Positions 1-24,000 are shown, counted from the first letter of the stretch. The stretch is 64,000 nt of DNA from Nannocystis sp. SCPEA4 (GCF_026626685.1 NZ_JAPNJX010000021.1:233329-297328); one strand, 5' to 3'. Made by a program: numbers and translations. The notes: generated by a model from the sequence alone, not told the origin.

Positions 1-942
1 CCGCGGCCGCGGAGCGCGGCCCAGCTCGCGGACGTGCTGTGGTCGGCGCTGTCGCTGCTGCCCGGCCACGGGCACGAGGTGCTCGGCAGCTTCGTCGCCG
101 ACGACGTCGCCGCTCGCGCGCGCGTCGGCGGGTTGCGGGTCGAGGCGACCACGCTGCGCAGGTTGTCGCGGCTCGAGTTGCGCGGCGCCCGGCTCGACGT
201 CGACCTCGACTTCTTTCACGACGGCGGTCCCGACCTGACCCATGAGCCAGCCGGTGTCGCCGCCGAGCTGGCCGCCGCCGGCCTGCTCGACGACCCGCCG
301 GCGATGACCCATTCGATCGCCAGCGGCTTCATGCCCGAGCGCCTGCGGCCGCTCGGCGCCCGGCTGGCCGCGGCGATGGGCTTCGCGTTCGCCCCCTCGA
401 CCCCGCGGCCGCAGCAGGCCGCGCGCAGCCTCGCCGTCGTCGCTCGCGCCGCGCCGGCGTCGCACGCCGAGCTCGCCGAGCTCACCGCGAGCGAGCTGGA
501 CCCTCTGGGCGGCCCCGGAATGGCCCTGCGCGCCGTGTTGTGCGCCCGCGCCGATCGGCTGGGCGAGGCGGCGGAGGCCCACGCCGAGGCGCGCAGGCTC
601 GGCGACCGCGCGACCTGGCCGGCCTACGAGCTCGGCCTTCGCCACCTCGCGCGGCGCGAGCCGGGCGCGGCGGCCGAGTGGTTCGCTCGCGCCGAGGGCG
701 ACCTCGTCGACACCATGCAGGCCCACAGCCTCTCCCTGCGCGCCCTCGCCGAGTGCCGGCGTGGCGACTTCGCGGCCGGCCTGGCCGCCGCGCTGCGCTG
801 CCTCGAGCGGATCCCGCTGCGGGCCGAGCCGTACCAGCTCGCCAGCATCGCCGCGGCCCGCCTCGGCCGCGCCCACGAGCTCGACGAGGTCCGCGCGCGG
901 CTCGAGCGATTGCAGGCGACACGAAAGGACGCAGGACTGTGA
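1..942 (+). CDS. TPR-like hypothetical protein, probably 5'-partial. The frame is open from nt 1; the first in-frame start is GTG at 34.
   Basis: ORF track 34..942. No stop lies upstream in this frame. The C-terminal half has TPR-like helical repeats. The stop TGA (940-942) overlaps the GTG (939) of the next gene. Confidence 0.5.
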   Translation, partial: PRPRSAAQLADVLWSALSLLPGHGHEVLGSFVADDVAARARVGGLRVEATTLRRLSRLELRGARLDVDLDFFHDGGPDLTHEPAGVAAELAAAGLLDDPPAMTHSIASGFMPERLRPLGARLAAAMGFAFAPSTPRPQQAARSLAVVARAAPASHAELAELTASELDPLGGPGMALRAVLCARADRLGEAAEAHAEARRLGDRATWPAYELGLRHLARREPGAAAEWFARAEGDLVDTMQAHSLSLRALAECRRGDFAAGLAAALRCLERIPLRAEPYQLASIAAARLGRAHELDEVRARLERLQATRKDAGL

Positions 943-3068
943 GCACCTGGCTGCCCGACGAATTCTTCGCCACGCACTGGCGCCGCCGCCCGCTGTTGAT
1001 CCGCGGCGGCGCCTCGCGCCTGCTCACGCCCGGCGTCACGGAGGACGAGCTCGACGACGCCATCGCGCGGCTGTCCCGGCTCGACCCCGACCGCGTCAAG
1101 CGCTCGGGCGACGACGTCGTGTTCGCCCAGCGCATCGACGCCGTGGTGCCGCGGCTGCGGGTGCTCGCCCAGCGGCTCGTGCCCCTGTTCGGCAGCGCGA
1201 ACGTCGGCTTCGACGGCTCGACGATGCGGGACGGGCACAGCATCGGCAGCCACTACGATTACAGCGACAACTTCATCCTCCAGCAGTCCGGCGCCAAGCT
1301 GTGGCGACTTCACCCGCCCGACATCATCCCGCGCGATCAGCAGCGCCTGCGCATGCTGAAGCACCCGGAGCTCGGCCCGGTGCCCATGCCCGCGGGCGCG
1401 ATCGAGTACACGCTCGAGCCGGGCGATCTGCTGTACATCCCGATCTTCTGGCCGCACTGGGGGCTGTCGCGCGGCCCGTCGACGAGCGTCTCGCTGCTCG
1501 TCGACGCCGAGTCGGCGCACGGCGAGATCGTGCCGACGCTCGCGGCCCTGCTCTCGGAGGACGAGCGGTTCTGGTCGCCGCTGCCCGCGGTCCCCGTCGA
1601 TCTCGCGTCCGCCGAGGCGGCGCTGCCGGACGCGCTCGCCCAGGTCCTGTCCGACCTCGGCGAGGCCCTGCGCGACCCCACGGTCGCGCGCACGCTGGCG
1701 CGGCGGTGGTGGCAGGCGCGGGTCGCCCGCTTGCGGCAGGCCGCCGGCGTCGCTCCGCCGCGCGACGCCTCGTCCGCGGACGCGCTGCCGATCGACATGG
1801 CCCGCGTGCGGACGCTGCTGCAGGCCCCGCTGCCGCCGCTCGACCCGAGCCGGCTCGCGCTCCCCGAGCCCGACGGTGCGGCCCACCGGTTGCTGCGCGA
1901 CTACGCCTGGCGCCCCTACCTCAAGCGCCTGCTCGTCCTCTGCAGCCGCGCACACGCGAAGCTGCACGACGAGGCCCACCGGCGCTCGCTGGCCACTTTG
2001 GTCGTCGGCGTGCAGCGGCTCGCCCCCGACGTCCTGCGCGACCTCCTGCTCCGGCCCGAGCTCACCTCCTGGATCTGGCGCATGGCCGAGGCGCTCGAGT
2101 TCGCCTTCCCGCCGCAGCTCGAGCTGCTCGTGCGTCACCTCGGCGTCGCGCTGCTGCCGGCGTTGTTCGTCCACGACGCGCTCCCCGCGGGCGAGCCCGT
2201 CTTGCTCGCCCCCACCGATTCGACCGAGCTGCACCTGCTGTCGCTGACATGCGCGCTGCGGACCCGCGAGCCGCTGCCCGAGGTCGTCACCGCCGTGGCC
2301 GCGGGCGACGAGCTCCGCCTCGGCGAGGCGCTGGCGATCCCTCGCGCAGCGCTGCGTGAACCGGCCAGGGGCGACGGCTGGGAGGTCGTGCCGCTGGCGA
2401 CGGCGCCCGGCTCCCGCGTGCTCCTGCTGCGGACCAGCCGCTGGTACACCGAGTTCTTCCCGGCGCGCGAGGACGTCGAGGGCCGCGTCAGCCCGTTGTT
2501 CCTCGACATCGACGACGCCGCGCTGGCGGCGTGGCGGGCCGCGATGACCGAGGGCTTGCAGCGCGTCGGCCACCACTGGCCCGCCGCCCGCGCCGAGCTC
2601 GAGGACAGCGTCGCGGTCCTGCTGCCCGTACGCTCGCACGGCCTGCGCCCGCACAACGCCAGCGTCGCCGGCTTTCGCGGCCTCATCACCGCCAGCGCAC
2701 GCCCGGACTACATGACCGCGCAGACGCTCGTCCACGAGGCCGCGCACAACAAGCTCAGCACGCTGCTCGACGTCTACCCGGTCGTCACCAACCCCGACGA
2801 CGAGCTCCACCCCTCGCCCTTCGTCGCCATCCCGCGGCCGCTGACGGCGCTCGTCCACGGCGTGTACTCGTTCCTCCACGACATTCAGCTCACCCGCCGC
2901 ATGCTCGCGGCCGGCGTCCCCGCGCTCGCCGAGGCGCCGATGGATCGCTATCTGCGAAAGATCGAGGACCGGGTCGCCGCCGCGATGTCCACCCTGCGGC
3001 AGCACGCCCGCCTCACGCCCGCCGGAGAGGCCCTGCTCGCCGGCGTCGAACGGGCCCGCGAGACATGA
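939..3068 (+). CDS. Two-domain fusion: an N-terminal JmjC/cupin-4 Fe(II)/2-oxoglutarate oxygenase and a C-terminal HExxH-motif domain ('aKG-HExxH'-type putative peptide-modifying enzyme).
   Basis: Same frame as ORF 540..3068, but the start is taken as GTG 939 overlapping the upstream stop (GTGA). The N-terminus has 'THWRRRPLLIRGG' and 'HYDYSDNFILQQSGAKLWRL ... PHWG' (cupin His/Asp/His ligands). The C-terminus has 'LVHEAAHNKLS' (HExxH). The antisense ORF 624..3281 is rejected. Confidence 0.75.
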   Translation: MSTWLPDEFFATHWRRRPLLIRGGASRLLTPGVTEDELDDAIARLSRLDPDRVKRSGDDVVFAQRIDAVVPRLRVLAQRLVPLFGSANVGFDGSTMRDGHSIGSHYDYSDNFILQQSGAKLWRLHPPDIIPRDQQRLRMLKHPELGPVPMPAGAIEYTLEPGDLLYIPIFWPHWGLSRGPSTSVSLLVDAESAHGEIVPTLAALLSEDERFWSPLPAVPVDLASAEAALPDALAQVLSDLGEALRDPTVARTLARRWWQARVARLRQAAGVAPPRDASSADALPIDMARVRTLLQAPLPPLDPSRLALPEPDGAAHRLLRDYAWRPYLKRLLVLCSRAHAKLHDEAHRRSLATLVVGVQRLAPDVLRDLLLRPELTSWIWRMAEALEFAFPPQLELLVRHLGVALLPALFVHDALPAGEPVLLAPTDSTELHLLSLTCALRTREPLPEVVTAVAAGDELRLGEALAIPRAALREPARGDGWEVVPLATAPGSRVLLLRTSRWYTEFFPAREDVEGRVSPLFLDIDDAALAAWRAAMTEGLQRVGHHWPAARAELEDSVAVLLPVRSHGLRPHNASVAGFRGLITASARPDYMTAQTLVHEAAHNKLSTLLDVYPVVTNPDDELHPSPFVAIPRPLTALVHGVYSFLHDIQLTRRMLAAGVPALAEAPMDRYLRKIEDRVAAAMSTLRQHARLTPAGEALLAGVERARET

Positions 3069-4189
3069 GCGACGTCCGCCTCCACCGCAGCGTCCTGCTG
3101 GCCGTCGGCGCGGCCCCGCGGTGGTTCGGAGCGACATGCGAGCACCCCGGGCTGCTCGCCTGGTCCGAGCTCGCCGCTGCTGCCGAGGCGCTGCAGGTCG
3201 CGCTCGCCGCCACGCTCGGCCCGGAGGTCCTCGCCCACGAGCTCTCGCTCGAGTCGCGCGCGCGGCTCCGCGGCGACGCATGCGTCGCGCACACCGCTCT
3301 CGTGATCCGGCTCGTCGTCGCCGGGCCGCGCTCGCGGATCCCCGTCGTCTGGCACACCTGCGTCCCCGAGGCCGGCACCGACGCGCTGGCTCGCCAGCTC
3401 CACGCCACGCTCGCGGGCGACGCGATCGCCGGCGAAGTGCGCGCCGCCGTCGACGGCGTCCCGCTCGCCGAGGTCACGCGCTGCCCCGTGGTCCTCGATC
3501 CATGGCTCGCGTCCACGCTGGTGCACGAGTGCATCGGCCACAGCTCCGAGGCCGACAATTACGCCGCGTACATGGCCCCGGCGGGGATCCGGCTCGGGCA
3601 CCGCTGGACCGAGCTGCCGCTCCACGTGGTCGACGACCCGCGCCTCCCGGGTCGCGTCGGCGGCTATGACGTCGACGACGAGGCCGTCCCGGCGCGCGCC
3701 ACCCCGCTCGTGCGGGACGGCGTCTGGTGCGGCCTGCTGCACAGCCGCGCCAGCGCCCGGCAGCTCGGCGTCGACAGCTCCGGTCACGGTCGCCGGGTCG
3801 ACGACGCGCCCGCCATCCCGCGCATGGCCGTCACCTACGTCGAGCCCGGCGGGCAGTCGCCCGCGGCTCTGCTCGCGGACCAGGCCGACGCCATCTATTG
3901 CCGCGGCGTGATCGGCGGCGGCTCGGTCGGCCGCGAGTTCGTCCTCCGGCCCGCGTATGGCGTGCGGATCCGCCACGGCCGGCCGACCGGCGAGGTGCTG
4001 CGCCGCTTCGACCTCGTGGGTGACAAGCTCGCCACGCTCGCCCGGCTCGCCGGCATCGCCGACGACCTCACCTTCTTCGACTCCGCGCTCGGCTGTAACA
4101 AGGACGGCCAGAACAACCTGCCCGTCAGCCAGGGCGCTCCGCACCTCGCCCTGAGCGCCGCCTCGCTGCGCCCGATCGCCCGCCCTTGA
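3065..4189 (+). CDS. TldD/PmbA-family metallopeptidase (peptidase U62-like), short form.
   Basis: ATG 3065 overlaps the upstream stop (ATGA). It carries 'LVHECIGHSSE', an HExxxH motif like that of TldD, and 'GGGSVGREFVLRPAYGVRIRHGRPTGE', typical of the TldD/PmbA C-terminal domain. Confidence 0.7.
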   Translation: MSDVRLHRSVLLAVGAAPRWFGATCEHPGLLAWSELAAAAEALQVALAATLGPEVLAHELSLESRARLRGDACVAHTALVIRLVVAGPRSRIPVVWHTCVPEAGTDALARQLHATLAGDAIAGEVRAAVDGVPLAEVTRCPVVLDPWLASTLVHECIGHSSEADNYAAYMAPAGIRLGHRWTELPLHVVDDPRLPGRVGGYDVDDEAVPARATPLVRDGVWCGLLHSRASARQLGVDSSGHGRRVDDAPAIPRMAVTYVEPGGQSPAALLADQADAIYCRGVIGGGSVGREFVLRPAYGVRIRHGRPTGEVLRRFDLVGDKLATLARLAGIADDLTFFDSALGCNKDGQNNLPVSQGAPHLALSAASLRPIARP

Positions 4190-4782
4190 CAGCCTCGCTC
4201 GACCACGCCTCCATGTCCTCCATGTCCTTCGCGCCCGTCACCGTGCATCTCTCCGACGGTCGTCGCTGCACCCTCCGGGCCGCCGCCGAGGGCGACGACG
4301 CGGGCCTGTACGCGCTCGAGCAGGCCATCGTGCGCGCCCGCGACGGCGTCGTGAAGTACCCCGACGAGCTCCCGCCCGACCTCGCCGCGTACGCCGAGAA
4401 GCGCGCCAATTCCGGGGCCGCCTTCGCCCTCGTCGCCGCCCAGGACGACGGCGAATTGCTGGGCGAGGCGTCGCTGGTGCGCCTGCCGTTCCGCATGCTC
4501 CACCACGTCGCCGTCCTCGGCATGGGCGTCCATCCGCGCGCTCAGAGCCGCGGCCTCGGGCGCGCGCTGCTCACCCATCTCCTCGCCTGGGCCCGCGACC
4601 ACCGCGACCTCGACGGCGGCCGCGTCCTCCGCGTCGAGCTCTACACCCGCGCCGACAACCACCGCGCCCTCGCCCTGTACCACGCGCTCGGCTTCCGACT
4701 CGAGGGCACCCGCCGCGCGTTCGTCCTCCGCGACGACGGCGCGCTCGTCGACGACCACATGATGGCCCTGCTCTTCGCATGA
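4186..4782 (+). CDS. GNAT-family N-acetyltransferase.
   Basis: TTG 4186 overlaps the upstream stop. Alternative ATG starts are at 4213 and 4222. It has a GNAT motif, 'HHVAVLGMGVHPRAQSRGLGRALLTHLLAWAR'. Confidence 0.7.
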   Translation: MTASLDHASMSSMSFAPVTVHLSDGRRCTLRAAAEGDDAGLYALEQAIVRARDGVVKYPDELPPDLAAYAEKRANSGAAFALVAAQDDGELLGEASLVRLPFRMLHHVAVLGMGVHPRAQSRGLGRALLTHLLAWARDHRDLDGGRVLRVELYTRADNHRALALYHALGFRLEGTRRAFVLRDDGALVDDHMMALLFA

Positions 4783-5065
4783 GCGAAGCCCTCGCCGCGC
4801 GGCCGCGCCGGTCGAGATGACGATCGCCCGCGGCACGTCGGCGCCCTGGATGTCTCTTTCGCCATGTTTCCATGAACATGTCTGAATAGCCATGTCCAGG
4901 GGCGCGGGCACGACTCCGCGCGACCCCCCAGGGCGCGACCCCCGCGCGATTTCGCCCCGCCCGACCCCGCCAAACCTCGCCCAGGCCCGCGCGAGCGGCA
5001 ATTTTCGGCTCCCGCAATTTTTCGGCCGGCTGCGGCGACTCCAGGTCCGCACGGTGACGCCCATC

Positions 5066-5980
5066 ATGTACAGCACAGCGAACATCTCTTCGACGACGCG
5101 CGCGCGAGTCCTGGCCGGGCTGGCCTGCGCCGCGCTGTTCGTCCTGCCGGAGCGGCCCGCGGCGGCGCTCTCGTGCGATGGCCCGGCGTGGGAGGACGAG
5201 TGGGCGATGCCCGGCTCGCTGCGCAACTCGTTTGAAGAGTTCCCGCTCGACGCCCAGTTCTGGGAGCTGCGCAGCTGCGCGTACGACTTTGCCCCTCCCT
5301 CGGAATGCCGGCTGGAGCGCGGCGACGACGTCATCCCGGTCGCGGTCGAGGTCGACGGCGCGGAGCACTGCAACGTCGAGCCCTCGTACGTCGGCGGCGA
5401 CAATGACCCCGACGCGATCGTCCGCTACGTGCCCGAGCGCCCCCTCCTCCCCGAGCGCTCCTACGTGCTCGTGTGCGACGCCAACGGCCCCGCGCCCAAC
5501 GACGAGCAGGGCCAGTACACCTTCGTGCGCTCGCGCCTCGACCCCGCGCCGGCCGCGACGCCGGGCTCGCTGGACGACATCGGGCTCGAGTTCAAGCGCG
5601 GCGACGAGGGCTGCTGCGAGAGCGGCAGCTACCTCGACCTGCGGCTCGACCTCGAGCAGCCGTGGCTGCTCGAGGGCGGCTACGTCGAGGTGCTCTACGA
5701 CGACGGTCAGGTGTTCGCCGTCCGCGAGCCCGACAGAAATTGGTCGAGCGCGATCGAGATGCCGCCGACCGAGGGAGGCCTCGAGCTCACGCCGGTCGCC
5801 GCCGACGGCACCCGCGGCGAGACGCGCCGCTTCGACCGCGGCGACTACGACCGCGAGCTCATCTACACGCCCTGCGCCGTGACCGGCCACGCGTCGCCGC
5901 TGGCGCTGTGGCTGTTCGCGCCGCTGCTGTGGATCGGCACGCTCGGCCGCCGCCGTCGCGCCGCCGGAGGTGCGTCATGA
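5066..5980 (+). CDS. Secreted protein with a MYXO-CTERM-like C-terminal sorting tail.
   Basis: ATG 5066 sits in the frame of ORF 4892..5980. It has an N-terminal signal peptide. Its C-terminus reads 'TPCAVTGHASPLALWLFAPLLWIGTLGRRRRAAGG', which is Cys, then a hydrophobic stretch, then RRRR. Confidence 0.65.
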   Translation: MYSTANISSTTRARVLAGLACAALFVLPERPAAALSCDGPAWEDEWAMPGSLRNSFEEFPLDAQFWELRSCAYDFAPPSECRLERGDDVIPVAVEVDGAEHCNVEPSYVGGDNDPDAIVRYVPERPLLPERSYVLVCDANGPAPNDEQGQYTFVRSRLDPAPAATPGSLDDIGLEFKRGDEGCCESGSYLDLRLDLEQPWLLEGGYVEVLYDDGQVFAVREPDRNWSSAIEMPPTEGGLELTPVAADGTRGETRRFDRGDYDRELIYTPCAVTGHASPLALWLFAPLLWIGTLGRRRRAAGGAS

Positions 5981-6678
5981 TTTCCCATGTTCTTTTACAC
6001 ATGTCTCTTGCGACAAGTCTTTTCGGGCAGGCCCCGGCCGGCGACGCCGGCGTCGCCGTCCCGCCGCCCGCCGCGCCCGCTCCGGCAGCCGCTCCCGTCG
6101 CGCCCGCCCCTGCGGCCGCGGCCCCCGCGACGGCCCAGCTCGACGGGACCGCCGACCCCTCGCCAGCCCCGCAGCCCGCGCCCGCGCCCGCGTATGTCCA
6201 TCAGGACATGTCTGCTCCGCCAGCCTACCCTCCGGCGCCGGCGCCGGCGAACAAGTCGCGGTTCGTGTTCGCGTTCCTGCCGGGACCGACGTACGGGCTC
6301 CACTACTTCCCCTCCGCGAACCTGCCGTTCTTCTTCGGCGCCCGGCTGAAGCGCAGCCCGTGGGCGCTGGGCTTCCAGTTCACCGTGTCGACCGGCCTCG
6401 CCGAGCGCTACCTCTCCGGCCTCCTCACCCACCGCTATCACGTCACCGGCCTCACGAGCTTCGGCGCGCGCGGCCGCGGCTTCGCCAGCGTCGGCGGCGG
6501 CTTCGCGGTCCGCTTCTTCTCGCCCATGATCGAGGCCGAGGGCCGGGTCGGCCTCCGCTTCGGCTCGCGCCGCCGCGGCATCGTCGCCGGAATGGTCCGC
6601 CTCGGCTACGACTTCGCCCACCGCGAGGGCGCCCCGGTGCCGCAGGTCGGCGTCGTGGTCGGCATCTGCACCTTCTGA
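5977..6678 (+). CDS. Hypothetical Pro/Ala-rich protein with a β-strand-rich C-terminal domain ending in Phe (possibly outer-membrane). An alternative ATG is at 6001.
   Basis: ATG 5977 overlaps the upstream stop (ATGA). Its first ~14 codons are rare, AT-rich codons that coincide with a recurring DNA motif, so the true start may lie downstream. The C-terminal residue is Phe. Confidence 0.5.
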   Translation: MISHVLLHMSLATSLFGQAPAGDAGVAVPPPAAPAPAAAPVAPAPAAAAPATAQLDGTADPSPAPQPAPAPAYVHQDMSAPPAYPPAPAPANKSRFVFAFLPGPTYGLHYFPSANLPFFFGARLKRSPWALGFQFTVSTGLAERYLSGLLTHRYHVTGLTSFGARGRGFASVGGGFAVRFFSPMIEAEGRVGLRFGSRRRGIVAGMVRLGYDFAHREGAPVPQVGVVVGICTF

Positions 6679-6756
6679 AGCATCACCGACCGCCTCGCGC
6701 CATTCACGGCGTGTCACTCCTGACAGGGGGGCACGCGGCACGCCGAACATGCGCCC

Positions 6757-7899
6757 TCACTTCGCCTGCAGCTCGCGCAGCCGCGCCTCGAGCATCTCCT
6801 TCGCCTGCGGGTCCGTCGCCTTCGCCACCTGCTTCTCGAGCAGCTTGACCTGCGCCACGCGCAGCGCGTCGTCGGCCGGCACCGCGACGTCGGGCTTCAC
6901 GCCGACGCCCTCCCAGTTCGTCTTCGAGATCGGGTTGATCGCGCGTCCGGTCGGCACGAACGCCGCGAAGTGGTCGCCGAGGCGGACCATGTCGCCGGGG
7001 TTGGCCCCGCCCCACGTCACCTCGCCGACGATGGTCGCGCGCTTGAGGTTCTGCAGGTTGTAGGCGAACTCCTCCGCCGCCGATCCAGTGTTCTTGCTGG
7101 TGAGCACGTAGATCTCGCGGCCGACGTACGCCTTGCCCGGCACCGGCGCCGTCCAGAACTGGCGCGTCGCATCGGCTGGCCGGAAGTACAGGTCGTTGAG
7201 GTGCACCGGCTCGTCGAAGAAGTAGCTGCAGAGATACGCCACCACCTCGGGCGCCCCGCCGCCGTTGCGGCGCAGGTCGATGATGAGCCCGTCGGTCTCC
7301 GCCAGGAAGTCCATCGCAGCGCTCGCCGCCGTGAAGCCGCGCCCCGGGAACTCGAACGACCGCACCTCGACGTAGCCGAGGTTGCCCGCCAGCCGCTCGA
7401 CCCGCTCGAACCCGCCGTTCACCTGGTTGGAGAACTCCTCGTAGCGCGCCAGATCCTCGGCCGACGGCGGCCCGGGCTGCCGCTGCGGCGGCAACGTCTC
7501 CTTGCTGAACCGCACGTGGAAGTGGGCGTCGAACAGCACCTCGTTGATATGAGCGGTCAGCGCCGTCGCCAGCGCGTGGCCCGTGGTGATGCCATTGTAT
7601 TCGCCGCGCTTCTTGCGGGCCCGGAGCGCGCGCGCCACCTCGGTCGCCTTCTTCGGGAACACGTACTTGTCCGTCAGTTCGCGGGCCAGCGCCTCGATCG
7701 CCTGGTCGCGCTCCGCCGCCGTGATCGGCCCGTCCGGCCCCTTCGGCGGCCGCGGCGGCGGCACGGCCCGCTTGGCTTCGCTGGTCTCGGCGGGCGCCGC
7801 TGCGGCCGGCTTGGCGGCCGCGACCGGCGCGCAGCCGAAAGCGTAAAGGGTGGATATCGTCAGCCAACCGATCAGGCACCTGTACAGTCGCATCACCAT
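6757..7899 (-). CDS. Peptidase S41 family lipoprotein (tail-specific/C-terminal processing protease-like).
   Basis: ORF 6757..8034, with the start placed at ATG 7899 just after a GGAG. It has the signal/lipobox 'ISTLYAFGC' and the S41 motif 'GLIIDLRRNGGG'. Confidence 0.8.
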   Translation of the reverse strand: MVMRLYRCLIGWLTISTLYAFGCAPVAAAKPAAAAPAETSEAKRAVPPPRPPKGPDGPITAAERDQAIEALARELTDKYVFPKKATEVARALRARKKRGEYNGITTGHALATALTAHINEVLFDAHFHVRFSKETLPPQRQPGPPSAEDLARYEEFSNQVNGGFERVERLAGNLGYVEVRSFEFPGRGFTAASAAMDFLAETDGLIIDLRRNGGGAPEVVAYLCSYFFDEPVHLNDLYFRPADATRQFWTAPVPGKAYVGREIYVLTSKNTGSAAEEFAYNLQNLKRATIVGEVTWGGANPGDMVRLGDHFAAFVPTGRAINPISKTNWEGVGVKPDVAVPADDALRVAQVKLLEKQVAKATDPQAKEMLEARLRELQAK

Positions 7900-7993
7900 C
7901 GTCTCCGAATCGTGGGACCCCGGCGCGGGCCCTGTCCTGTCATTCCTGTCTCTGGTCTCTGCGGCGAAACCCCGGCTCACTCCGACCGCCCCG

Positions 7994-8719
7994 TCACGGC
8001 TTCGGTTTCTTCCTCCGCGTCGCCCCTGCCTCACCCGGCCGGGCGCGCGCGCCTGCTTGCACCTTCGTCTGCTTCTTCGCCGCCGCCGCGCCCTTGACTC
8101 GCGGCTCCGACCCCGGCACCACCAGGCTCCTGAGCAGCAAGTCGGCCATGCGCCGGACCTCGACCTCGATCTGCCCCCGTTGCCCGAGCTCGTGCACGCT
8201 CAGGCTGTAGGGCAAGAAAGCATTGGTCGCCTTCACCAGCGTCGACGCCGTCGCCACCGCGTCGTCGAGCGCGAACCGCCCGCCCGCGCGGCCGGCCGCC
8301 AGCACCTTGGCCACCAGCGCCACCTCGCGCTCCATGTGGATCGTCCGGCGGGCCATGTACGCCGGACGCACCGCCTCGAACAGCTCGTCGAGGCTCGTGT
8401 GATAGGCGCTGACGCTGTCGAAGCGCCGCAGCACCCGCTCGACCAGCACCCGGTGCAGCACCGCCGCGACGTCGCCCGTCCCGCCCGCGAGCTCGACCAG
8501 GCGGGCGTACGTCTGCGCCACCACCCGGTCGATCGACGACAACCCCACCTCTTCCTTGCTCGGGAAGTACATGTAGATCGTCCGCCGGCTGACCCCCGCC
8601 TCGGAAGCGATGTCGTCCATCGTCACGCCGCGAAAGCCCCGCGTCGTCAACAGCCGATCGGTGGCGTCGAGGATGGCCTCGCGCGTCTCGCCGTTGCCTC
8701 GCCCCGAATTCACGAGCAC
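7994..8719 (-). CDS. TetR/AcrR-family transcriptional regulator.
   Basis: ORF 7994..8941 trimmed to GTG 8719, which sits just downstream of the palindromic operator. It has an N-terminal HTH, 'TREAILDATDRLLTTRGFRGVTMDDIASEAGVSRRTIYMYFPSKEE'. It sits upstream of, and in the same orientation as, the S41 peptidase. Confidence 0.75.
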   Translation of the reverse strand: MLVNSGRGNGETREAILDATDRLLTTRGFRGVTMDDIASEAGVSRRTIYMYFPSKEEVGLSSIDRVVAQTYARLVELAGGTGDVAAVLHRVLVERVLRRFDSVSAYHTSLDELFEAVRPAYMARRTIHMEREVALVAKVLAAGRAGGRFALDDAVATASTLVKATNAFLPYSLSVHELGQRGQIEVEVRRMADLLLRSLVVPGSEPRVKGAAAAKKQTKVQAGARARPGEAGATRRKKPKP

Positions 8720-8727
8720 ACCCGAGC

Positions 8728-8755
8728 CTTGCACAAAACCAGAACTTTGTGCAAG
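8728..8755. promoter_or_regulatory. Perfect 10-bp inverted repeat, CTTGCACAAA-N8-TTTGTGCAAG. It is a candidate TetR operator.
   Basis: Seen directly in the sequence, immediately 5' of the tetR start on the minus strand. Confidence 0.6.
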
Positions 8756-18047: not shown

Positions 18048-21000
18048 GTGGTACCTTGGGCGGCCCCGCTCGCGGCACCACGCCCCATGCCTGAAACTGC
18101 CGTCGCGCCCAAGCGCCAGCCCTCGCCTCACGATCTGCCTTGTCCGTTGCCGCCTGTGGCTCCTGGAGAGCCGCCGGAGCTGGCCGCGTTTCGAGCCAAG
18201 CCGAGCGACGACGCATTCTTGCGTCTGCGCCGGGCCTTCCGCGAGGCCGAGAACTGGAGCGGGCTCGCCACCTTGCTCGTCGTGCACGCCGCCGCGATCA
18301 CGGGTCCGCCGAAGGTCGGCGAGCTGTGCGTGCAGGCGTACGAGCTCTGGTACGACCGGGTCAAGGACAAGCCGCAGGCCGCCTACGCGCTCGTACGGGC
18401 GCTGCAGGCCGAGCCGCACAACCATCGCGCCTTCGAGCTGCTGCGCAAGGTCTACCAGGAGATCGGCGCGCTGGACGAGCTCGCCACCCTCCTCAAGTTC
18501 CGCCTCGATCATCTGCGTCGGAACGATCGTGGGGCTGTGCCGGCCGCCCTGGTCGAGCTCGGCAAGGTCGACGAGCAGCGCTGTCAGGTCGACGAGGCGA
18601 TCGCTTGCTACAGGGCCGCGCTCGACATCAACCATGGCGAGCGCGACGCCGCCGAGCAGCTGATCCGGCTGCACCTTCAGGCGGGCGCCTGGCTGCGGGT
18701 CATCGATCTGATCAACGCCGAGCTCGCGCGCACCGACGCGGTCCGCGAGCGCGAGCGGTTCGCCGCGCTGCACCTGCGGCTGGCGCGGATCGAGGCCGAG
18801 CAGCTCGAGAACATCCCCTCGGCCGCGCTCCACCTGCAGGCCGCGCTCAAGGCCAACCCTGACGACGTCGCCGCCTTGCGGGCGTTCGGCGCCCTCTACC
18901 TCGGCAGCGGCAAGGCCAGCGACGAGGGCCTGCAGAAGGCCGCCGACGTGTTCTTTCGGGCAGCCAAGCTCGCGCGCAGCCAGGGCGACGACAAGATCGC
19001 CTACAACCTCCTGCGCCGGGCCATGAGCCTGCGCCCCGATCACCACGAGGCCGGCAACGCGCTGGCCGAGCTGTTGATGGCGCAGGAGAAGTGGATGGAG
19101 CTCGACGACCTCTACGGCGCCTGGATCGGCTACGTCACCGAGGCCGACAGCTACGGCCTGTGGCTGTCGCGCGGCGAGCTGCTCGAGACCCGCCTCGCCC
19201 GCCGCGAGGAGGCGCGCGCCTGCTACGAGCAGGCCTCGCGGCTCGAGCGACCCGGCGGCGACGCCTGGCTGCGGCTCGAGGCCCTGCTCGTCGAGCTCGG
19301 CGACAACCACGCCCTCGTCGGCCTGTACGAGCGCTGGTCGGAGCAGGACCCGAGCAGCTTGTCGACCGACAAGCTGCTGTGGGCCGCCCGCGTCGCCCGC
19401 GAGGACCTCGGCGACGAGGAGCGGGCCGCCGTCGCCTTCTACCGCGTGCTCGAGCGCGAGCCCTTCAACCACGAGGCGTTCGAGGGCTACAAGGAGCACT
19501 GGCGGCGCAAGAACAACTGGTCGCACCTCGCCGGCCTCATCCTCTACCAGGTCGACCAGGCGCTGCAGATGGGCGGCGGCCCCGACAGCCCGCTCGCGCG
19601 CAGCGAGTTCGCCGAGCACTTCGTCGAGCTGGCCGAGATCTACGAGCGCCGCCTCGGCGACCTCGCCGGCGCCCTCGACGCGTGGAACCGGCTCGCGCTG
19701 GCCTACCCCAACGACTGGCGCCCGCGCGACCAGATCGCCCGCATCGACAAGCGCGCGCGCATGCTCGACGCCAACCTCGCCACCCTCGAGGCCGAGCTGC
19801 AGCGCACCGTCGATCCGCAGCGGCGCTTCGAGGTGCTGCGGCGGCTGTCGCAGGCCCACCGCGAGCGCATGACCGACCCGCAGCGCACCATCGTCCTGCT
19901 GCAGGAGATGCTGGCGCTGGCGCCCGGCCACGAGGGGGCCCTGCGGGCGCTCGCGGAGATGTACGAACGGACAGGTGCTTACGACCAGGTCATCGACCTG
20001 CTGCGGCGCCAGCACGACGTCACCCGCAGCATCTCGCAGCGGGTGGTCCTGCTGCGGCGCATGGCCGAGCTGTGGCAGCACGAGCTGCACAGCCCGCGCG
20101 AGGCGCTGTGGGCCTGCGAGCAGATCCTCGGCTACAGCCCGTCCGACCTCGACGCCGTCCACCGCATGCAGGGCCTGTCGTCCGAGCTCGGCGACGCCGG
20201 CGGCGAGTACGAGGCCCTCTCGCGCGAGCTGCAGCTGGTCGGCGAACCGGCCCAGCGCACCCGCATCATCCGGCGCATGGCCGACGTCGCCGACCGCAAG
20301 CTGCAAGATCCGCAGCGCTCGGCCCAGGCGTGGACGCAGCTGCAGGCCGCCGACCCGCACAACCTCGAGGTCACCGACAAGCTGATCGCCGCCTACGAGG
20401 CGCTCGGCAACCGCGAGGAGCTGGCCAACCTGCTCGGCAAGGCCGCCAGTTCGGCGCGCACCCCCGCGATCCGCCAGCTCGACTACCTCATGCGCCTGGG
20501 CCACGTCGCCGAGGCCTCGCTCGGCGACGCCGACCTGGCCTGCTCGGCCTTCGAGCGCGCGCTGCGGATCCACCGCGACCACCGCGGCGCCACCGAGGCG
20601 CTGACCCGCCTCTACCGCAACCTCGGCAGCTGGCACGGCCTCGCCGCCTCGCTCGGCACCCTGCAGGAGATGGCCGACAGCGACGAGGAGGCGCTCGGCA
20701 TCGGCTGGGAGCGCGCCGAGATCCTGGCCGACCGCCTCGACAACCCGGCGGCCGCCATCCGCGTGCTCGAGCAGCTCGCCTCGACCTCCGCCGTCGGCCA
20801 CCGCGACGTCGCCCTCAAGCTGCTCGAGCTGTACGAGCGCGCCGGCCAGTACGACCGCCTGATCCGCCAGGCCGAGGTGCTGCTGCTGTCCGCGCTCGAG
20901 ACCGACGAGCGGCGCGAGCTGTTCTCGCTGATCGCCCGCAACTACGTCGTCAACCTCAACCAGCCGCAGAAGGCCATCGCCGCGTTCCAGCGGTTCATGC

Positions 21001-24000
21001 GCGAGGAGCCCGACGACAGCGAGGGCCTCAAGGTCCTCGGCGAGCTGCAGACCATGGCCGGGGACCACCAGGCCACCCTCGACACGCTCGCCAAGCGGCT
21101 CGAGAGCCTCACCGACGCCGCCCAGCAGGTCGTCACTCTCGAGCAGATGGCCGAGGTGTGCGAGTACGGGCTCGGCCACGCCAAGCGGGCGCTCGCGCTG
21201 CTCGGGCGGGCTCTCGGCATCGCCCCCGGCAGCCGCGACCTCAAGACCAAGATCGAGGCGTTCGCCGAGCGCCACGGCATGTACAAGGACCTGCTCGTCG
21301 TCTACGGCGAGCGCTTCACCGAGATGAGCGGCCGGGCCGAGAGCCGCGGCCAGATCGACCTCTGCCTCGGCGCCTCGGCCACCGCCGAGAAGAAGATCGG
21401 CGACGCCGACCTCGCGTTCGCCTGGGCGCGCAAGGCCTACTTCGTGGCCCTGCGCGCCGGCCTCGACGCCGGCCCCGTGCTCGACCGCCTCGAGGGCCTG
21501 GCCCAGGCCCACGGCCTGTGGCCGCAGATGCTCGAGGTCAGCGAGCAGGAGCTCGCCTTCCAGGAGAAGACCCCCAACTACGGCGACTTCGGCACCATCG
21601 CCCTCCTGATGTCCGCCGCCGAGATCGCCCGCGAGCGCCTCGGCGACCCCGCGCGCTCGATCGGCTACCTGCAGCGCGCCTACAAGCTGCGCCCCGACGA
21701 CGAGGATCTCGGGCGCCAGATCGAGGCCCTCGCCGAGGCGCACAAGATGTGGCAGGCGCTGATCGACCTGCACGAGGCCCGGCTCGCCCGCGCCAAGACC
21801 GGCCTCGGCCGCTTCGACCCCTGCACCGCGATCGCCAAGATCTACGAGCGCCACCTCGACGATCCCAGGCGCGCCTTCCAGTGGTTGCGCCGGGCCGAGA
21901 ACGATTTGCGGCCCGCCGATCCGTCGCTCGCCGAGGAGGCCGCCGGCCTGATGACCGAGCTGGCCCAGCGCCATCAATTGTGGCCCGAGCTCGCCGATCA
22001 CCACCGCGGCCTCGCGCTCGCCAAGCTGCAGCGGAGCGAGCGCGGCGGTCTCAATCAGCTCAAGGACTCGGCCCGCATCGACTACGAGAAGCGCCAGGAT
22101 CCGCTGGCCGCCCTGCGGACCCTGCGGCTCGGCGTCGCCTACGACCGCGACGGCGCTGCGCTGATGCCCGCGATCGAGGCGATGGCCGCCAAGGTCGACG
22201 AGAACCGCAGCCCCGACACCCCGCCGACCGGCGCCCTGACCCTGCTGTCGGTCACCCAGCAGATCATCGGCCAGACCGTCGACCCCGCGCTCAAGCTGCA
22301 GCTGCTCAAACGGCGCGCCGAGCTGCGCGCCGGCCTCGGCGACACCGCCGGCGCCATCGCCGAGTGGCTGCGCGCCCTCTCGCTCCACCCCGGCAGCGAG
22401 GAGGCCCGCTTCGAGCTCGACCGCCTGGCCGAGCGCGACAACCTGTGGCACCTCCTCCTGCTCGCGCCCGCCGCCGAGCTGCACTTCGGGACAGGCAAGG
22501 CCCAGCAGGGCAAGCTCCTGACCCAGATCGCCGAGCTCTACGAGAACTGCCTCGGCCGGCCCGAGTACGCCCTGCGGGCCCGGATCGCCGCGTGGAAGCT
22601 GCACGGCGACCTGCCGCCGGAGAAGGGCGAGCTCGGCCCGACCCACGCCAAGATGTGGCACCTCGCCGGCCTGACCGGCACCTACCTCACCCCGCAGCCG
22701 GTGCGCGACCCGCTGTTGTGGCCGCAGATCGCCCCGCCCGAGCTGGCCGACCGCGACCAGTGGCGCAAGCTCGGCCTCGACCCCGACACCCTCGCCCCGC
22801 GGATCGCCAAGAAGGTGCGGAGCAAGGAAGAGTCGAGCGTCGTCGAGCTCGACGACATCGAGGAGGTCTCGCGCCCGACCACCGAGATCCTCCTGTCCGA
22901 GCTCGAGCCGCTCGGCGATTTCCGCCGCGGCGGCGCCGAGGTCGTCGCCCGCCCGGGCAAGGGCGTCGCCTCCGACACGCACACCAACATCGTCGACATC
23001 GCCGAGCTCGAGCCGATCGAGGCCTCGGTGGCCACCACGACCAAGATCCGGCCCGCGCGGCCGGCCCGCGGCGAGACCGACATCGTCGACATCGCCGAGC
23101 TCGAGCCGGTCGAGGCCTCCGTCTCGGTCAGCGTGCGCGCGGCCGGATTGGCGCGCCAGGACAGCGGCGTGTTCGACCTCGCCGACCTCGAGCCGATCGA
23201 GGACAGCCTGGTCGGTCCGGCGCCGAAGCGCCCGGGCGGCGAGACCTCGGGCGTGCTCGACCTCGACGAGATGCTCGAGCTCGACGACGACGTCCCGCGG
23301 CCCACCTCGGCCAAGCCGTCGCTGCCGCGCCCGGCCGCCAAGCCGCTCAAGACGGCCCCGCCGCGCCCGCCCGGCGGCAAGCCGGTCGCCAAGGCCCCGC
23401 CGCCGACGCGCCGGCCCGCCGCCCCGCCGCCGCCGTCGCGCCCGCCGGCCGCGCCCGAACCTGTCCCTGCGGCCAGCTTGCCGCCCCCGCCCCCGGTCGC
23501 CAGCCGCGAGCTGATCGACGCCGTCACCGCCGGCCTGCCGCCGCTGCCCGAGCTCGACGCCCCGGTCCTGCCGGCCCGCCCCTCGGCCAGCTCCGCCTGG
23601 CACGAGCTGGCCCACGCCTACGCCTCGGTGGTCCCCGCCAGCAAGTCCGAGCGCGCCGGCCTCCAGCGCCTGCTCGCCCGCCTGTGGGACGAGGGCGCCG
23701 GCATGCCCGAGGCCGCGATCGAGCGCCTCGAGGAGGCCCTCGCGCTCGTGCCCGACGACCAGACCGCGCTCGCCGGCCTCGTCGACCTGTCCGAAAAGGC
23801 AGGTGACCCCGAGCGCCTGATCGCCGCGCTCTCGCGCCTGCTCGGCGACCTCACCCTGCCCGAGCACATCGTCGCCTATCACCTGCGCCTCGCCGACCTG
23901 TACGAACAGACAGGTCAGCCCGAGCGCGCCGAGGAGCAGTACCGCGGCGTGCTCGCGGTGTCGGCGAAGCACCTGCCGGCGCTGCGCAGCCTGGCCGCGC

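What the first reader, a model, noticed from the sequence alone, without database searches (positions are those of the whole stretch)
1..4782. Translationally coupled cupin-HExxH / TldD / GNAT cassette, a candidate peptide (RiPP-type) maturation module with no precursor in view
Four ORFs are joined by ATGA/GTGA overlaps (939, 3065 and 4186). The central gene fuses a JmjC/cupin Fe(II)/2OG oxygenase to an HExxH domain. This architecture is named 'aKG-HExxH-type peptide β-hydroxylase' in protein-family databases, as I recall. It is followed by a TldD/PmbA-type peptidase, a family used for leader removal (e.g. microcin B17), and a GNAT, which could do N-terminal acetylation. The first gene is a TPR-like protein, possibly a scaffold. 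No small precursor ORF lies inside the cassette, so it is probably upstream of nt 1. Alternatively the enzymes may modify a larger protein.
Basis: partly seen in the sequence, partly recalled or inferred. Interest (0 to 1): 0.65.

Follow-up and report, generated by a model that had tools for sequence, protein, structure and literature searches.

The report
Tail of a biphenomycin-type peptide-antibiotic cluster
These four genes are the downstream half of a biphenomycin-type ribosomal peptide-antibiotic gene cluster in the myxobacterium Nannocystis, a pathway worked out in 2025, so this is a new member with a few local twists, not a new system.

Summary
Four co-directional ORFs (open at nt 1 to 942; 939-3068; 3065-4189; 4186-4782) share stop/start overlaps. 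They encode a TPR protein, a JmjC + aKG-HExxH fusion, a TldD-like peptidase and a GNAT.

The RiPP guess is right and can now be named. The window (Nannocystis sp. SCPEA4) starts at codon 100 of a bipC/pbsE-type peptide arginase. In N. radixulma (97% nt identity) the upstream genes are a precursor with the diagnostic FHAFRF motif, a B12-radical SAM enzyme, an MNIO and its partner. The identical 97-aa precursor is recorded for SCPEA4, four accession numbers before ORF1.

This is the biphenomycin (bip/bpm/pbs) pathway published in 2025.
- ORF1 is the Arg-to-Orn arginase, not a scaffold.
- The fusion joins BipG (Orn gamma-hydroxylase) to BipH (aKG-HExxH beta-hydroxylase).
- The TldD-like protein is the self-sufficient protease BipI.

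The GNAT occurs only in the Nannocystis clusters. Its closest relatives are stand-alone myxobacterial genes, so its role is unproven.

Local twists are the fused hydroxylases (recurrent elsewhere), a 65-residue follower peptide and a Gram-negative host. Interest is modest.

The parts
1..942 (+). 3' part (codons 100-412 plus stop) of a bipC/pbsE-type peptide arginase with a C-terminal TPR domain. The arginase-fold part runs to about nt 440 and includes DVDLDFF (nt 196-216) and SIASGF (nt 313-330). The TPR part is about nt 463-939.
939..3068 (+). Fused double oxygenase (709 aa). N-terminal JmjC/cupin domain (about aa 1-260, nt 939-1718), BipG/BpmG/PbsQ-like. C-terminal complete aKG-HExxH oxygenase (about aa 280-709, nt about 1776-3065), BipH/BpmH-like.
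   Evidence: Pfam JmjC_2 E 2e-15 and NCBIfam TIGR04267 86 bits. A PDB profile search hits ribosomal oxygenases YcfD/NO66 for the N-half, and ChlH 8s5f and 22nu for the C-half. Foldseek of the model matches 8s5f at E 5.6e-11, TMt 0.74, over about 430 columns. In Streptomyces loci the two halves are separate genes (L008), as are BpmG (288 aa) and BpmH (351 aa).
1251..1457 (+). JmjC 2-His-1-carboxylate motif: H105-x-D107 (nt 1251-1259) and H173 (nt 1455-1457).
   Evidence: These residues are invariant in all six full-length homologs.
2733..2747 (+). HEAAH motif (aa 599-603) of the aKG-HExxH domain. Downstream His residues lie in LVHGVYSFLHD (nt 2850-2882).
   Evidence: The motif aligns to HEHRH of ChlH 8s5f, as does the following PSP...RP...H...H block. 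It is intact in P0001-P0004 and lost in P0005 and P0006.
3065..4189 (+). BipI/PbsP-like TldD-related metallopeptidase (374 aa). Only the C-terminal TldD domain is detected. The HExxxH motif HECIGH is at nt 3524-3541.
   Evidence: PmbA_TldD_3rd E 1.8e-36; motif position. It is syntenic and 39-58% identical to the peptidase gene of the related clusters. No TldE/PmbA partner or paralog lies in the 64-kb window.
4186..4782 (+). GNAT N-acetyltransferase (198 aa from TTG 4186, or 189 aa from ATG 4213). The acetyl-CoA motif QSRGLG is at nt 4543-4560. It is probably co-transcribed, but its membership of the pathway is unproven.
   Evidence: Acetyltransf_1 E 2.3e-17. Among the 13 bip-type and related loci it is found only in the N. 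radixulma locus L002. Its closest relatives (57-60% identity) in Pyxidicoccus and Myxococcus sit outside any RiPP cluster. No terminator-like site lies in nt 1-6200.

Best explanation
Window 1-4782 is the distal half of a biphenomycin-type (bip/bpm/pbs) RiPP biosynthetic operon of Nannocystis sp. SCPEA4.

Proximal half. It lies just upstream of nt 1 and is seen in the near-identical N. radixulma locus. It encodes a 97-aa precursor (...ELKVGNAFHAFRF followed by a 65-aa follower), a B12-radical SAM enzyme, an MNIO and its partner protein.

Inferred pathway, by orthology to the characterised Streptomyces and Peribacillus systems.
1. MNIO plus partner ortho-hydroxylate both Phe of the FRF core to ortho-tyrosines.
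2. ORF1, a peptide arginase with a TPR tail, converts the central Arg to ornithine.
3. The B12-rSAM makes the biaryl C-C cross-link.
4. The JmjC half of the fusion gamma-hydroxylates the ornithine.
5. The aKG-HExxH half beta-hydroxylates the C-terminal ortho-tyrosine.
6. The TldD-like peptidase, working without a TldE partner, trims away leader and follower to release a biphenomycin A-like cross-linked tripeptide.

The GNAT may acetylate a free amine of the product (tailoring or self-protection), or it may be an unrelated neighbour.

Shown here: gene content, domain identities, folds, catalytic motifs, synteny and the precursor motif. Inferred: every chemical step, since none was assayed for this organism.
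For: Link to the upstream genes.
- The window is 97% identical over 12 kb to N. radixulma L002, and window nt 1 corresponds to L002 nt 9063.
- L002 carries, upstream and on the same strand, a precursor ORF with FHAFRF (4685-4996), a B12-rSAM, an MNIO (PF05114) and a partner protein.
- The identical 97-aa precursor WP_267689146.1 is a MULTISPECIES Nannocystis record. One of its accessions, MCY1062659.1, lies four numbers before SCPEA4 ORF1 (MCY1062663.1) and five before the fusion (MCY1062664.1).

Conserved gene set. The same set, with FHAFRF or FHSFRF precursors, surrounds every homolog of the fusion whose upstream region was read for the motif: Sorangium, Thermoactinomyces, Salinithrix, an Actinomycetes MAG and Streptomyces. 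Two further contexts, the 8.8-kb metagenomic (Logan) contig L062 and a Thermoactinomycetaceae MAG contig (L063), show the same rSAM, MNIO, partner, arginase, fusion and peptidase order; their precursor motif was not read.

Literature.
- PMC12257519 defines the family by the FHAFRF precursor plus MNIO, partner, TPR-arginase, B12-rSAM, cupin Orn-hydroxylase (PbsQ/BpmG), aKG-HExxH (BpmH) and TldD-type protease.
- PMC12707348 gives the same set as BipA-I and shows BipG is a gamma-Orn hydroxylase and BipI a TldE-independent N- and C-terminal protease.

Folds and motifs.
- The fusion C-half matches ChlBH aKG-HExxH oxygenase 8s5f, E 5.6e-11.
- The JmjC HxD...H triad, HEAAH and HECIGH are all intact.
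Against: The SCPEA4 DNA upstream of nt 1 could not be read directly. The link rests on a 97%-identical sister genome and on consecutive GenBank protein accessions.

No characterised Bip, Bpm or Pbs protein sequence could be aligned directly, because the supplement text was OCR-damaged. Orthology is therefore argued from synteny, the precursor motif and domain content.

In the main texts of both papers, BipH/BpmH activity is itself inferred from presence/absence correlation, not from reconstitution.

The JmjC core of the structural model is of low confidence, with pLDDT below 50 at aa 99-180.

The 65-aa follower is far longer than in the characterised precursors, so the released product could differ.
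Confidence: 0.88

Rival explanations
1. A generic, uncharacterised RiPP module. A cupin-HExxH enzyme beta-hydroxylates Asp/Asn residues of an unknown precursor, TldD removes the leader, the GNAT acetylates the new N-terminus and the TPR protein acts as a scaffold.
For: The domain calls are correct. Characterised aKG-HExxH enzymes such as ChlH do hydroxylate Asp and His (PMC12636437). There is a weak sub-threshold GNAT hit to the RiPP N-acetyltransferase HaaN, 17 bits against a cutoff of 250.
Against: The precursor is now known and has an FRF core in an FHAFRF motif, with no Asp/Asn-rich core. The TPR protein has a peptide-arginase fold. The whole gene set matches the biphenomycin pathway. The GNAT is absent from all other clusters of the family that were examined.
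Confidence: 0.04
2. It is a biphenomycin-type cluster, but the C-terminal HExxH domain of the fusion is a non-catalytic peptide-binding or docking module for the JmjC domain. The product would then be a biphenomycin B-like compound with no beta-hydroxyl.
For: Of 35 fused homologs with a detectable C-terminal domain, 11 have lost the HExxH motif yet keep the domain. A further 15 proteins, mostly of fusion length, have a C-terminal part too diverged to detect. The domain is therefore retained without catalysis in many lineages. BipH activity has not been reconstituted in the main texts of the two papers.
Against: In the window protein HEAAH and the downstream conserved His/Pro/Arg block are intact and align to the ChlH active-site region. 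TIGR04267 scores twice its cutoff. The closest homologs (Sorangium, the metagenomic Logan-contig protein P0003, Thermoactinomyces) also keep the motif.
Confidence: 0.12
3. The JmjC fusion and the GNAT act on a large protein, for example a ribosomal protein as YcfD/RoxA and RimI/J/L do, and not on a small peptide.
For: The best solved-structure sequence matches of the JmjC half are the ribosomal oxygenases YcfD, NO66 and MINA. The GNAT has weak similarity to RimI/RimJ-type models.
Against: All examined homologs of the fusion lie in clusters with the same rSAM, MNIO, arginase and peptidase genes, and an FHAFRF or FHSFRF precursor was found wherever the upstream region was read for it. The stand-alone JmjC orthologs BipG, PbsQ and BpmG were shown to hydroxylate peptide-bound Orn. 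All RimI/J hits are far below the model cutoffs.
Confidence: 0.02

Closest known systems
Biphenomycin BGC of Streptomyces griseorubiginosus / S. filipinensis (bipA-I / bpmA-I; PMC12707348, PMC12257519)
   Same: Same precursor motif (FHAFRF with an FRF core). Same enzyme set: MNIO plus partner, TPR-arginase, B12-rSAM, JmjC hydroxylase, aKG-HExxH hydroxylase and a TldD-related peptidase with no TldE. The presence of a BipH-type domain predicts the beta-hydroxylated (biphenomycin A/C-type) series.
   Different: BipG and BipH are separate genes in Streptomyces (288 and 351 aa in S. filipinensis) and are fused into one 709-aa protein here. The gene order differs. The precursor has a 65-aa follower, against 2 residues (RS) in Sg_BipA. 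A GNAT follows the peptidase, where the other clusters have an MFS transporter. Two ABC-exporter genes lie upstream in N. radixulma. The host is a Gram-negative myxobacterium.
pbs cluster of Peribacillus simplex BE23 (PbsA1-4, B, C, D, E, P, Q; PMC12257519)
   Same: FHAFRF precursors, MNIO/partner ortho-hydroxylation, arginase PbsE, B12-rSAM cross-link, cupin Orn hydroxylase PbsQ and the TldD-type HExxxH protease PbsP. Overlapping hydroxylase and protease genes also occur there.
   Different: The pbs cluster has no aKG-HExxH (BpmH) homolog and has four precursor genes. Its cupin gene is stand-alone and lies after the protease gene.
ChlBH / rSAM-fused aKG-HExxH oxygenases (Morishita et al. 2024 Nat Chem, cited in PMC12452194 ref 56; PDB 8s5f) and PflC/PosC (PMC12636437)
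   Same: The C-terminal 430 residues adopt the same zincin-like aKG/Fe oxygenase fold, with an HExxH motif.
   Different: The fusion partner here is a JmjC cupin oxygenase, not a radical SAM domain. The predicted substrate is a cross-linked oTyr, not Asp/His/Gln. Sequence identity is only about 16-18%.
Peptide arginase OspR (landornamide pathway; PDB 8brp)
   Different: ORF1 carries an extra C-terminal TPR domain. By analogy with PbsE, it acts on a single Arg flanked by ortho-tyrosines.

Membership tests
Biphenomycin-type (bip/bpm/pbs) RiPP BGC | A precursor peptide with the conserved FHAFRF motif (FRF core) | tested here: met
   The motif is not in the window itself. It is present in the 97%-identical N. 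radixulma locus, 4.38 kb upstream of the position equivalent to window nt 1. The identical 97-aa protein is recorded for SCPEA4 as MCY1062659.1.
Biphenomycin-type (bip/bpm/pbs) RiPP BGC | [quoted passage not shown] | tested here: met
   They lie outside the window. In L002 the rSAM is at 5107-7020 (Radical_SAM plus B12-binding), the MNIO at 7032-7976 (PF05114) and the partner at 7969-8769. All are 57-76% identical to the Sorangium cluster genes.
Biphenomycin-type (bip/bpm/pbs) RiPP BGC | TPR-containing peptide arginase (BipC/PbsE) | tested here: met
Biphenomycin-type (bip/bpm/pbs) RiPP BGC | JmjC/cupin ornithine hydroxylase (BipG/BpmG/PbsQ) | tested here: met
   JmjC_2 E 2e-15, with an invariant HxD...H triad. 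It is 39-45% identical to the stand-alone JmjC genes in the Streptomyces clusters. The substrate was not tested.
Biphenomycin-type (bip/bpm/pbs) RiPP BGC | TldD-related HExxxH peptidase without a TldE partner (BipI/PbsP) | tested here: met
   PmbA_TldD_3rd E 1.8e-36 with the HECIGH motif. No second TldD/PmbA-like gene lies in the window, and none was called in the related contexts whose gene tables were returned.
Biphenomycin-type (bip/bpm/pbs) RiPP BGC | The product is a biaryl-cross-linked oTyr-(OH)Orn-oTyr peptide | not testable with these tools
   This needs expression and MS/NMR. No report of biphenomycins from myxobacteria was found in the held literature.
[quoted passage not shown] | A match to the family model above its curated cutoff | tested here: met
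   86.3 bits against a cutoff of 40, at aa 537-702.
[quoted passage not shown] | An intact HExxH motif and the fold of the solved aKG-HExxH oxygenases | tested here: met
   HEAAH at aa 599-603 aligns to HEHRH of ChlH. Foldseek to 8s5f gives E 5.6e-11 and TMt 0.72-0.75, and also matches 22ob.
[quoted passage not shown] | Fe(II)/aKG-dependent beta-hydroxylation of a peptide residue | not testable with these tools
   This is a biochemical assay. Even for BipH/BpmH the activity is inferred from product/genotype correlation in the main texts.
Canonical TldD/TldE (PmbA) heterodimeric protease | Full-length TldD (about 480 aa, N-terminal and C-terminal domains) paired with a TldE/PmbA subunit | tested here: not met
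   The protein is 374 aa and only the C-terminal domain is detected. The TldD equivalog models score 79-82 bits against cutoffs of 513-635. There is no partner gene. It therefore belongs to the BipI-type self-sufficient branch, not to canonical TldD.
RiPP tailoring N-acetyltransferase (e.g. HaaN) | A GNAT conserved within the RiPP cluster family and matching a RiPP-specific model | tested here: not met
   HaaN model: 17 bits against a cutoff of 250. The GNAT is absent from all non-Nannocystis bip-type loci. Its nearest relatives are stand-alone myxobacterial genes.

The most novel reading that the evidence does not exclude
The Nannocystis cluster makes a new biphenomycin congener. The single fused BipG-BipH polypeptide would carry out both hydroxylations on the macrocycle in one binding event. 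The GNAT, recruited from a myxobacterial housekeeping-type family, would N-acetylate the released tripeptide or its Orn side chain, as a final tailoring step or as self-protection. The unusual 65-residue follower peptide would have a role of its own, such as enzyme docking or export.
Probability: 0.2. Interest if true: 0.5.

Novelty: new member of a known kind. Interest (0 to 1): 0.3.

Why it matters
Biphenomycins are potent antibiotics against Gram-positive bacteria, and their biosynthesis was solved only in 2025. Known producers and characterised clusters are from Streptomyces and Peribacillus. A complete cluster of this type in Nannocystis and Sorangium extends the family to myxobacteria, which are proven natural-product producers.

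The cluster also offers a naturally fused JmjC + aKG-HExxH enzyme. That is a convenient single protein on which to test the beta-hydroxylase activity of the BipH type, which has so far only been inferred.

For genome annotation, the result turns four vaguely named genes ('hypothetical protein', 'HEXXH motif-containing putative peptide modification protein') into a specific pathway assignment. It does not reveal a new kind of system.

Tried and rejected
1. Exact-sequence look-ups of the window's fusion and peptidase, and of P0001, in the contig index found nothing. The SCPEA4 contig upstream of nt 1 could therefore not be read. I used the 97%-identical N. radixulma locus and the accession-number order instead.

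2. The word-indexed protein search gave only 6 hits for the fusion and 4 for ORF1, which suggested extreme rarity. The exhaustive HMMER search corrected this: 2341 hits, with about 50 fused cluster representatives among the top 154.

3. I tried to extract the characterised Pbs and Bpm protein sequences from the JACS supplement for direct alignment. The held text is OCR-damaged and truncated, so I abandoned this.

5. The promoter/terminator scan of nt 1-6200 found nothing, which is uninformative at 75% GC.

6. I considered the GNAT as a conserved part of the pathway and rejected that: it is absent from the other clusters, and its homologs sit in non-RiPP contexts.

7. I considered downstream genes as possible cluster members: a hypothetical secreted protein at 5066-5980, a convergent S41 peptidase and a TetR regulator. 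Nothing ties them to the cluster.


Full report
**Observation**

Window 1-4782 (75% GC) holds four co-directional ORFs.
- ORF1 has no in-frame stop in nt 1-33 and is cut by the window edge.
- The junctions are GTGA at 939-942, ATGA at 3065-3068 and TTGA at 4186-4189.
- The third junction uses a TTG start. In-frame ATGs lie at 4213 and 4222, and a 98%-identical database protein of 189 aa corresponds to the 4213 start. Coupling of the last gene is therefore the least certain.

- Third protein: PmbA/TldD C-terminal domain (E 1.8e-36).
- Fourth protein: a GNAT (E 2.3e-17).
- ORF1: no family hit.

**Source and the missing upstream half**

The fusion is 100% identical to a protein of Nannocystis sp. 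SCPEA4. That contig could not be fetched.

A scan of species-representative genomes returned N. radixulma locus L002. It is 97% identical to the window over the 12 kb compared, and window nt 1 corresponds to L002 nt 9063. Upstream on the same strand L002 encodes:
- a small ORF (4685-4996) reading ...LDVIESNELKVGNAFHAFRFAVVQ...;
- a B12-binding radical SAM enzyme;
- an MNIO (PF05114);
- a 266-aa partner protein;
- the full 412-aa homolog of ORF1.

An exact-sequence look-up shows that the 97-aa form of this precursor is a multispecies Nannocystis protein. One of its accessions, MCY1062659.1, lies four numbers before SCPEA4 ORF1 (MCY1062663.1) and five before the SCPEA4 fusion (MCY1062664.1). The same genome therefore encodes the precursor, with three genes between it and ORF1. 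The full-length SCPEA4 ORF1 (P0155, 412 aa) starts 99 codons before the window.

**Identification**

Two 2025 papers define exactly this gene set.
[quoted passage not shown] It links them to the biphenomycins.
- PMC12707348 describes BipA-I in the original producer. It shows BipG to be a gamma-ornithine hydroxylase and BipI a TldD-like protease that needs no TldE and trims both ends.

Every relative of the fusion that I examined sits in such a cluster. An FHAFRF or FHSFRF precursor was found in each of the seven loci searched that carry the rSAM-MNIO-arginase core: Sorangium, Thermoactinomyces, Salinithrix, a Thermoactinomycetaceae MAG, an Actinomycetes MAG and two Streptomyces. The metagenomic (Logan) contig L062 shows the same gene order, but its precursor motif was not read.

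**Gene-by-gene tests**

ORF1.
- Family alignments show invariant EEHG, DxHLD and DxDLDxF motifs.
- ORF1 is therefore the BipC/PbsE arginase, not a scaffold.

Fusion.
- The HxD...H triad (H105, D107, H173) is invariant.
- Residues about 280-709 form one complete aKG-HExxH oxygenase. Foldseek gives E 5.6e-11 and TMt 0.74 to ChlBH 8s5f, and also matches SjiH 22ob. HEAAH aligns to the ChlH motif.
- In Streptomyces locus L008 the two halves are separate genes. In S. filipinensis BpmG is 288 aa and BpmH 351 aa.
- The name 'aKG-HExxH' refers to the HExxH domain, which is itself an iron/aKG enzyme. The protein is thus a double oxygenase.

Peptidase. It carries HECIGH (HExxxH) and has no TldE-like partner anywhere in the window. 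This matches BipI/PbsP.

**How common is the fusion?**

The word-indexed search suggested only six such proteins. An exhaustive HMMER search of 1.84 billion representatives found 2341 relatives. The top 154 proteins comprise:
- about 50 fused, about 670-720 aa;
- 64 JmjC-only, median 283 aa;
- 40 HExxH-only, about 400-440 aa.

The fusion is a recurrent form, not a singularity. Of 35 fused proteins with a detectable C-domain, 11 have lost HExxH. This keeps alive the rival that the C-domain can serve a non-catalytic role. In the window protein the motif is intact.

**The GNAT**

Among the 13 bip-type and related loci it occurs only in the N. radixulma locus L002, besides the window itself. Its nearest relatives (57-60% identity) are stand-alone genes in Pyxidicoccus and Myxococcus, in a conserved non-RiPP neighbourhood. 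It is probably co-transcribed, being on the same strand with a gap of 23 nt or less. Its participation in the pathway is only a hypothesis: N-acetylation of the free N-terminus or of the Orn amine, as tailoring or as self-protection.

**Mechanism, inferred by orthology**

1. MNIO plus partner ortho-hydroxylate both Phe of FRF.
2. ORF1 converts Arg to Orn.
3. The B12-rSAM forms the biaryl bond.
4. The JmjC half gamma-hydroxylates Orn.
5. The HExxH half beta-hydroxylates the C-terminal oTyr.
6. The TldD-like enzyme removes the leader and the 65-aa follower.

The two papers differ on whether Orn hydroxylation precedes or follows cross-linking. BipH activity is inferred in their main texts, not reconstituted.

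**Boundaries**

Downstream of 4782 lie a hypothetical secreted protein, then a convergent S41 peptidase and a TetR regulator. These are not obviously part of the cluster. In N. radixulma two ABC-exporter genes lie upstream of the precursor.

**Verdict**

This is a correctly spotted RiPP module, and it can now be assigned to a family that was already characterised. It is a new, myxobacterial member with fused hydroxylases, a long follower peptide and an adjacent GNAT. No paper in the held library links biphenomycins to myxobacteria. Interest is modest.

Noticed in passing
L003 14017-14223; L005 11304-11510: In Thermoactinomycetaceae clusters the precursor ORF carries two leader-core units in one reading frame (...ELQVGNAFHAFRF...ELKVGNAFHAFRF). 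This is a tandem two-core precursor, where other clusters have several separate precursor genes.
   Followed up: no
L002 4685-4996 (equivalent to about 4.4 kb upstream of window nt 1): The Nannocystis precursor has a 65-residue follower after the FRF core, with no family hit. Followers in the other precursors examined are 0-13 residues. GC3 of the ORF (0.87) is consistent with coding throughout.
   Followed up: partly
P0005, P0006 and nine other fused homologs: About a third of the fused JmjC-HExxH homologs have lost the HExxH motif while keeping the domain, for example IETAR in Salinithrix. This suggests repeated decay to a non-catalytic role.
   Followed up: partly
window 939-3068: NCBI also holds a 614-aa N-terminally truncated annotation of this protein (WP_276599785.1). 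It would remove conserved residues 1-95 of the JmjC domain. Homolog conservation supports the 709-aa form.
   Followed up: yes
window 1-4782 against its flanks: Third-position GC of the cluster genes is 0.85-0.89 (ORF1's frame reads 0.94), against 0.91-0.97 for most flanking genes. This is a mild hint of horizontal acquisition, consistent with the cluster's patchy spread across Actinomycetota, Bacillota and Myxococcota.
   Followed up: no
L066 6888-8579; L067 6849-8594: The stand-alone myxobacterial homologs of the GNAT sit divergently next to a weakly Vgb-lyase/phytase-like gene in a conserved neighbourhood. Their function is unknown.
   Followed up: no
window 18048-27713 (+): A giant 3221-aa ORF rich in TPR repeats (TPR_19 E 2.6e-32, with many other TPR families).
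   Followed up: no
window 11156-12747 (-): Two adjacent DUF2589 proteins (E 7e-32 and 2e-6).
   Followed up: no
L007 1233-2441, 9996-11033, 11071-12288: An Actinomycetes MAG cluster carries several HExxH-domain copies around its FHAFRF precursor and JmjC gene. This is a different arrangement of the same parts.
   Followed up: no
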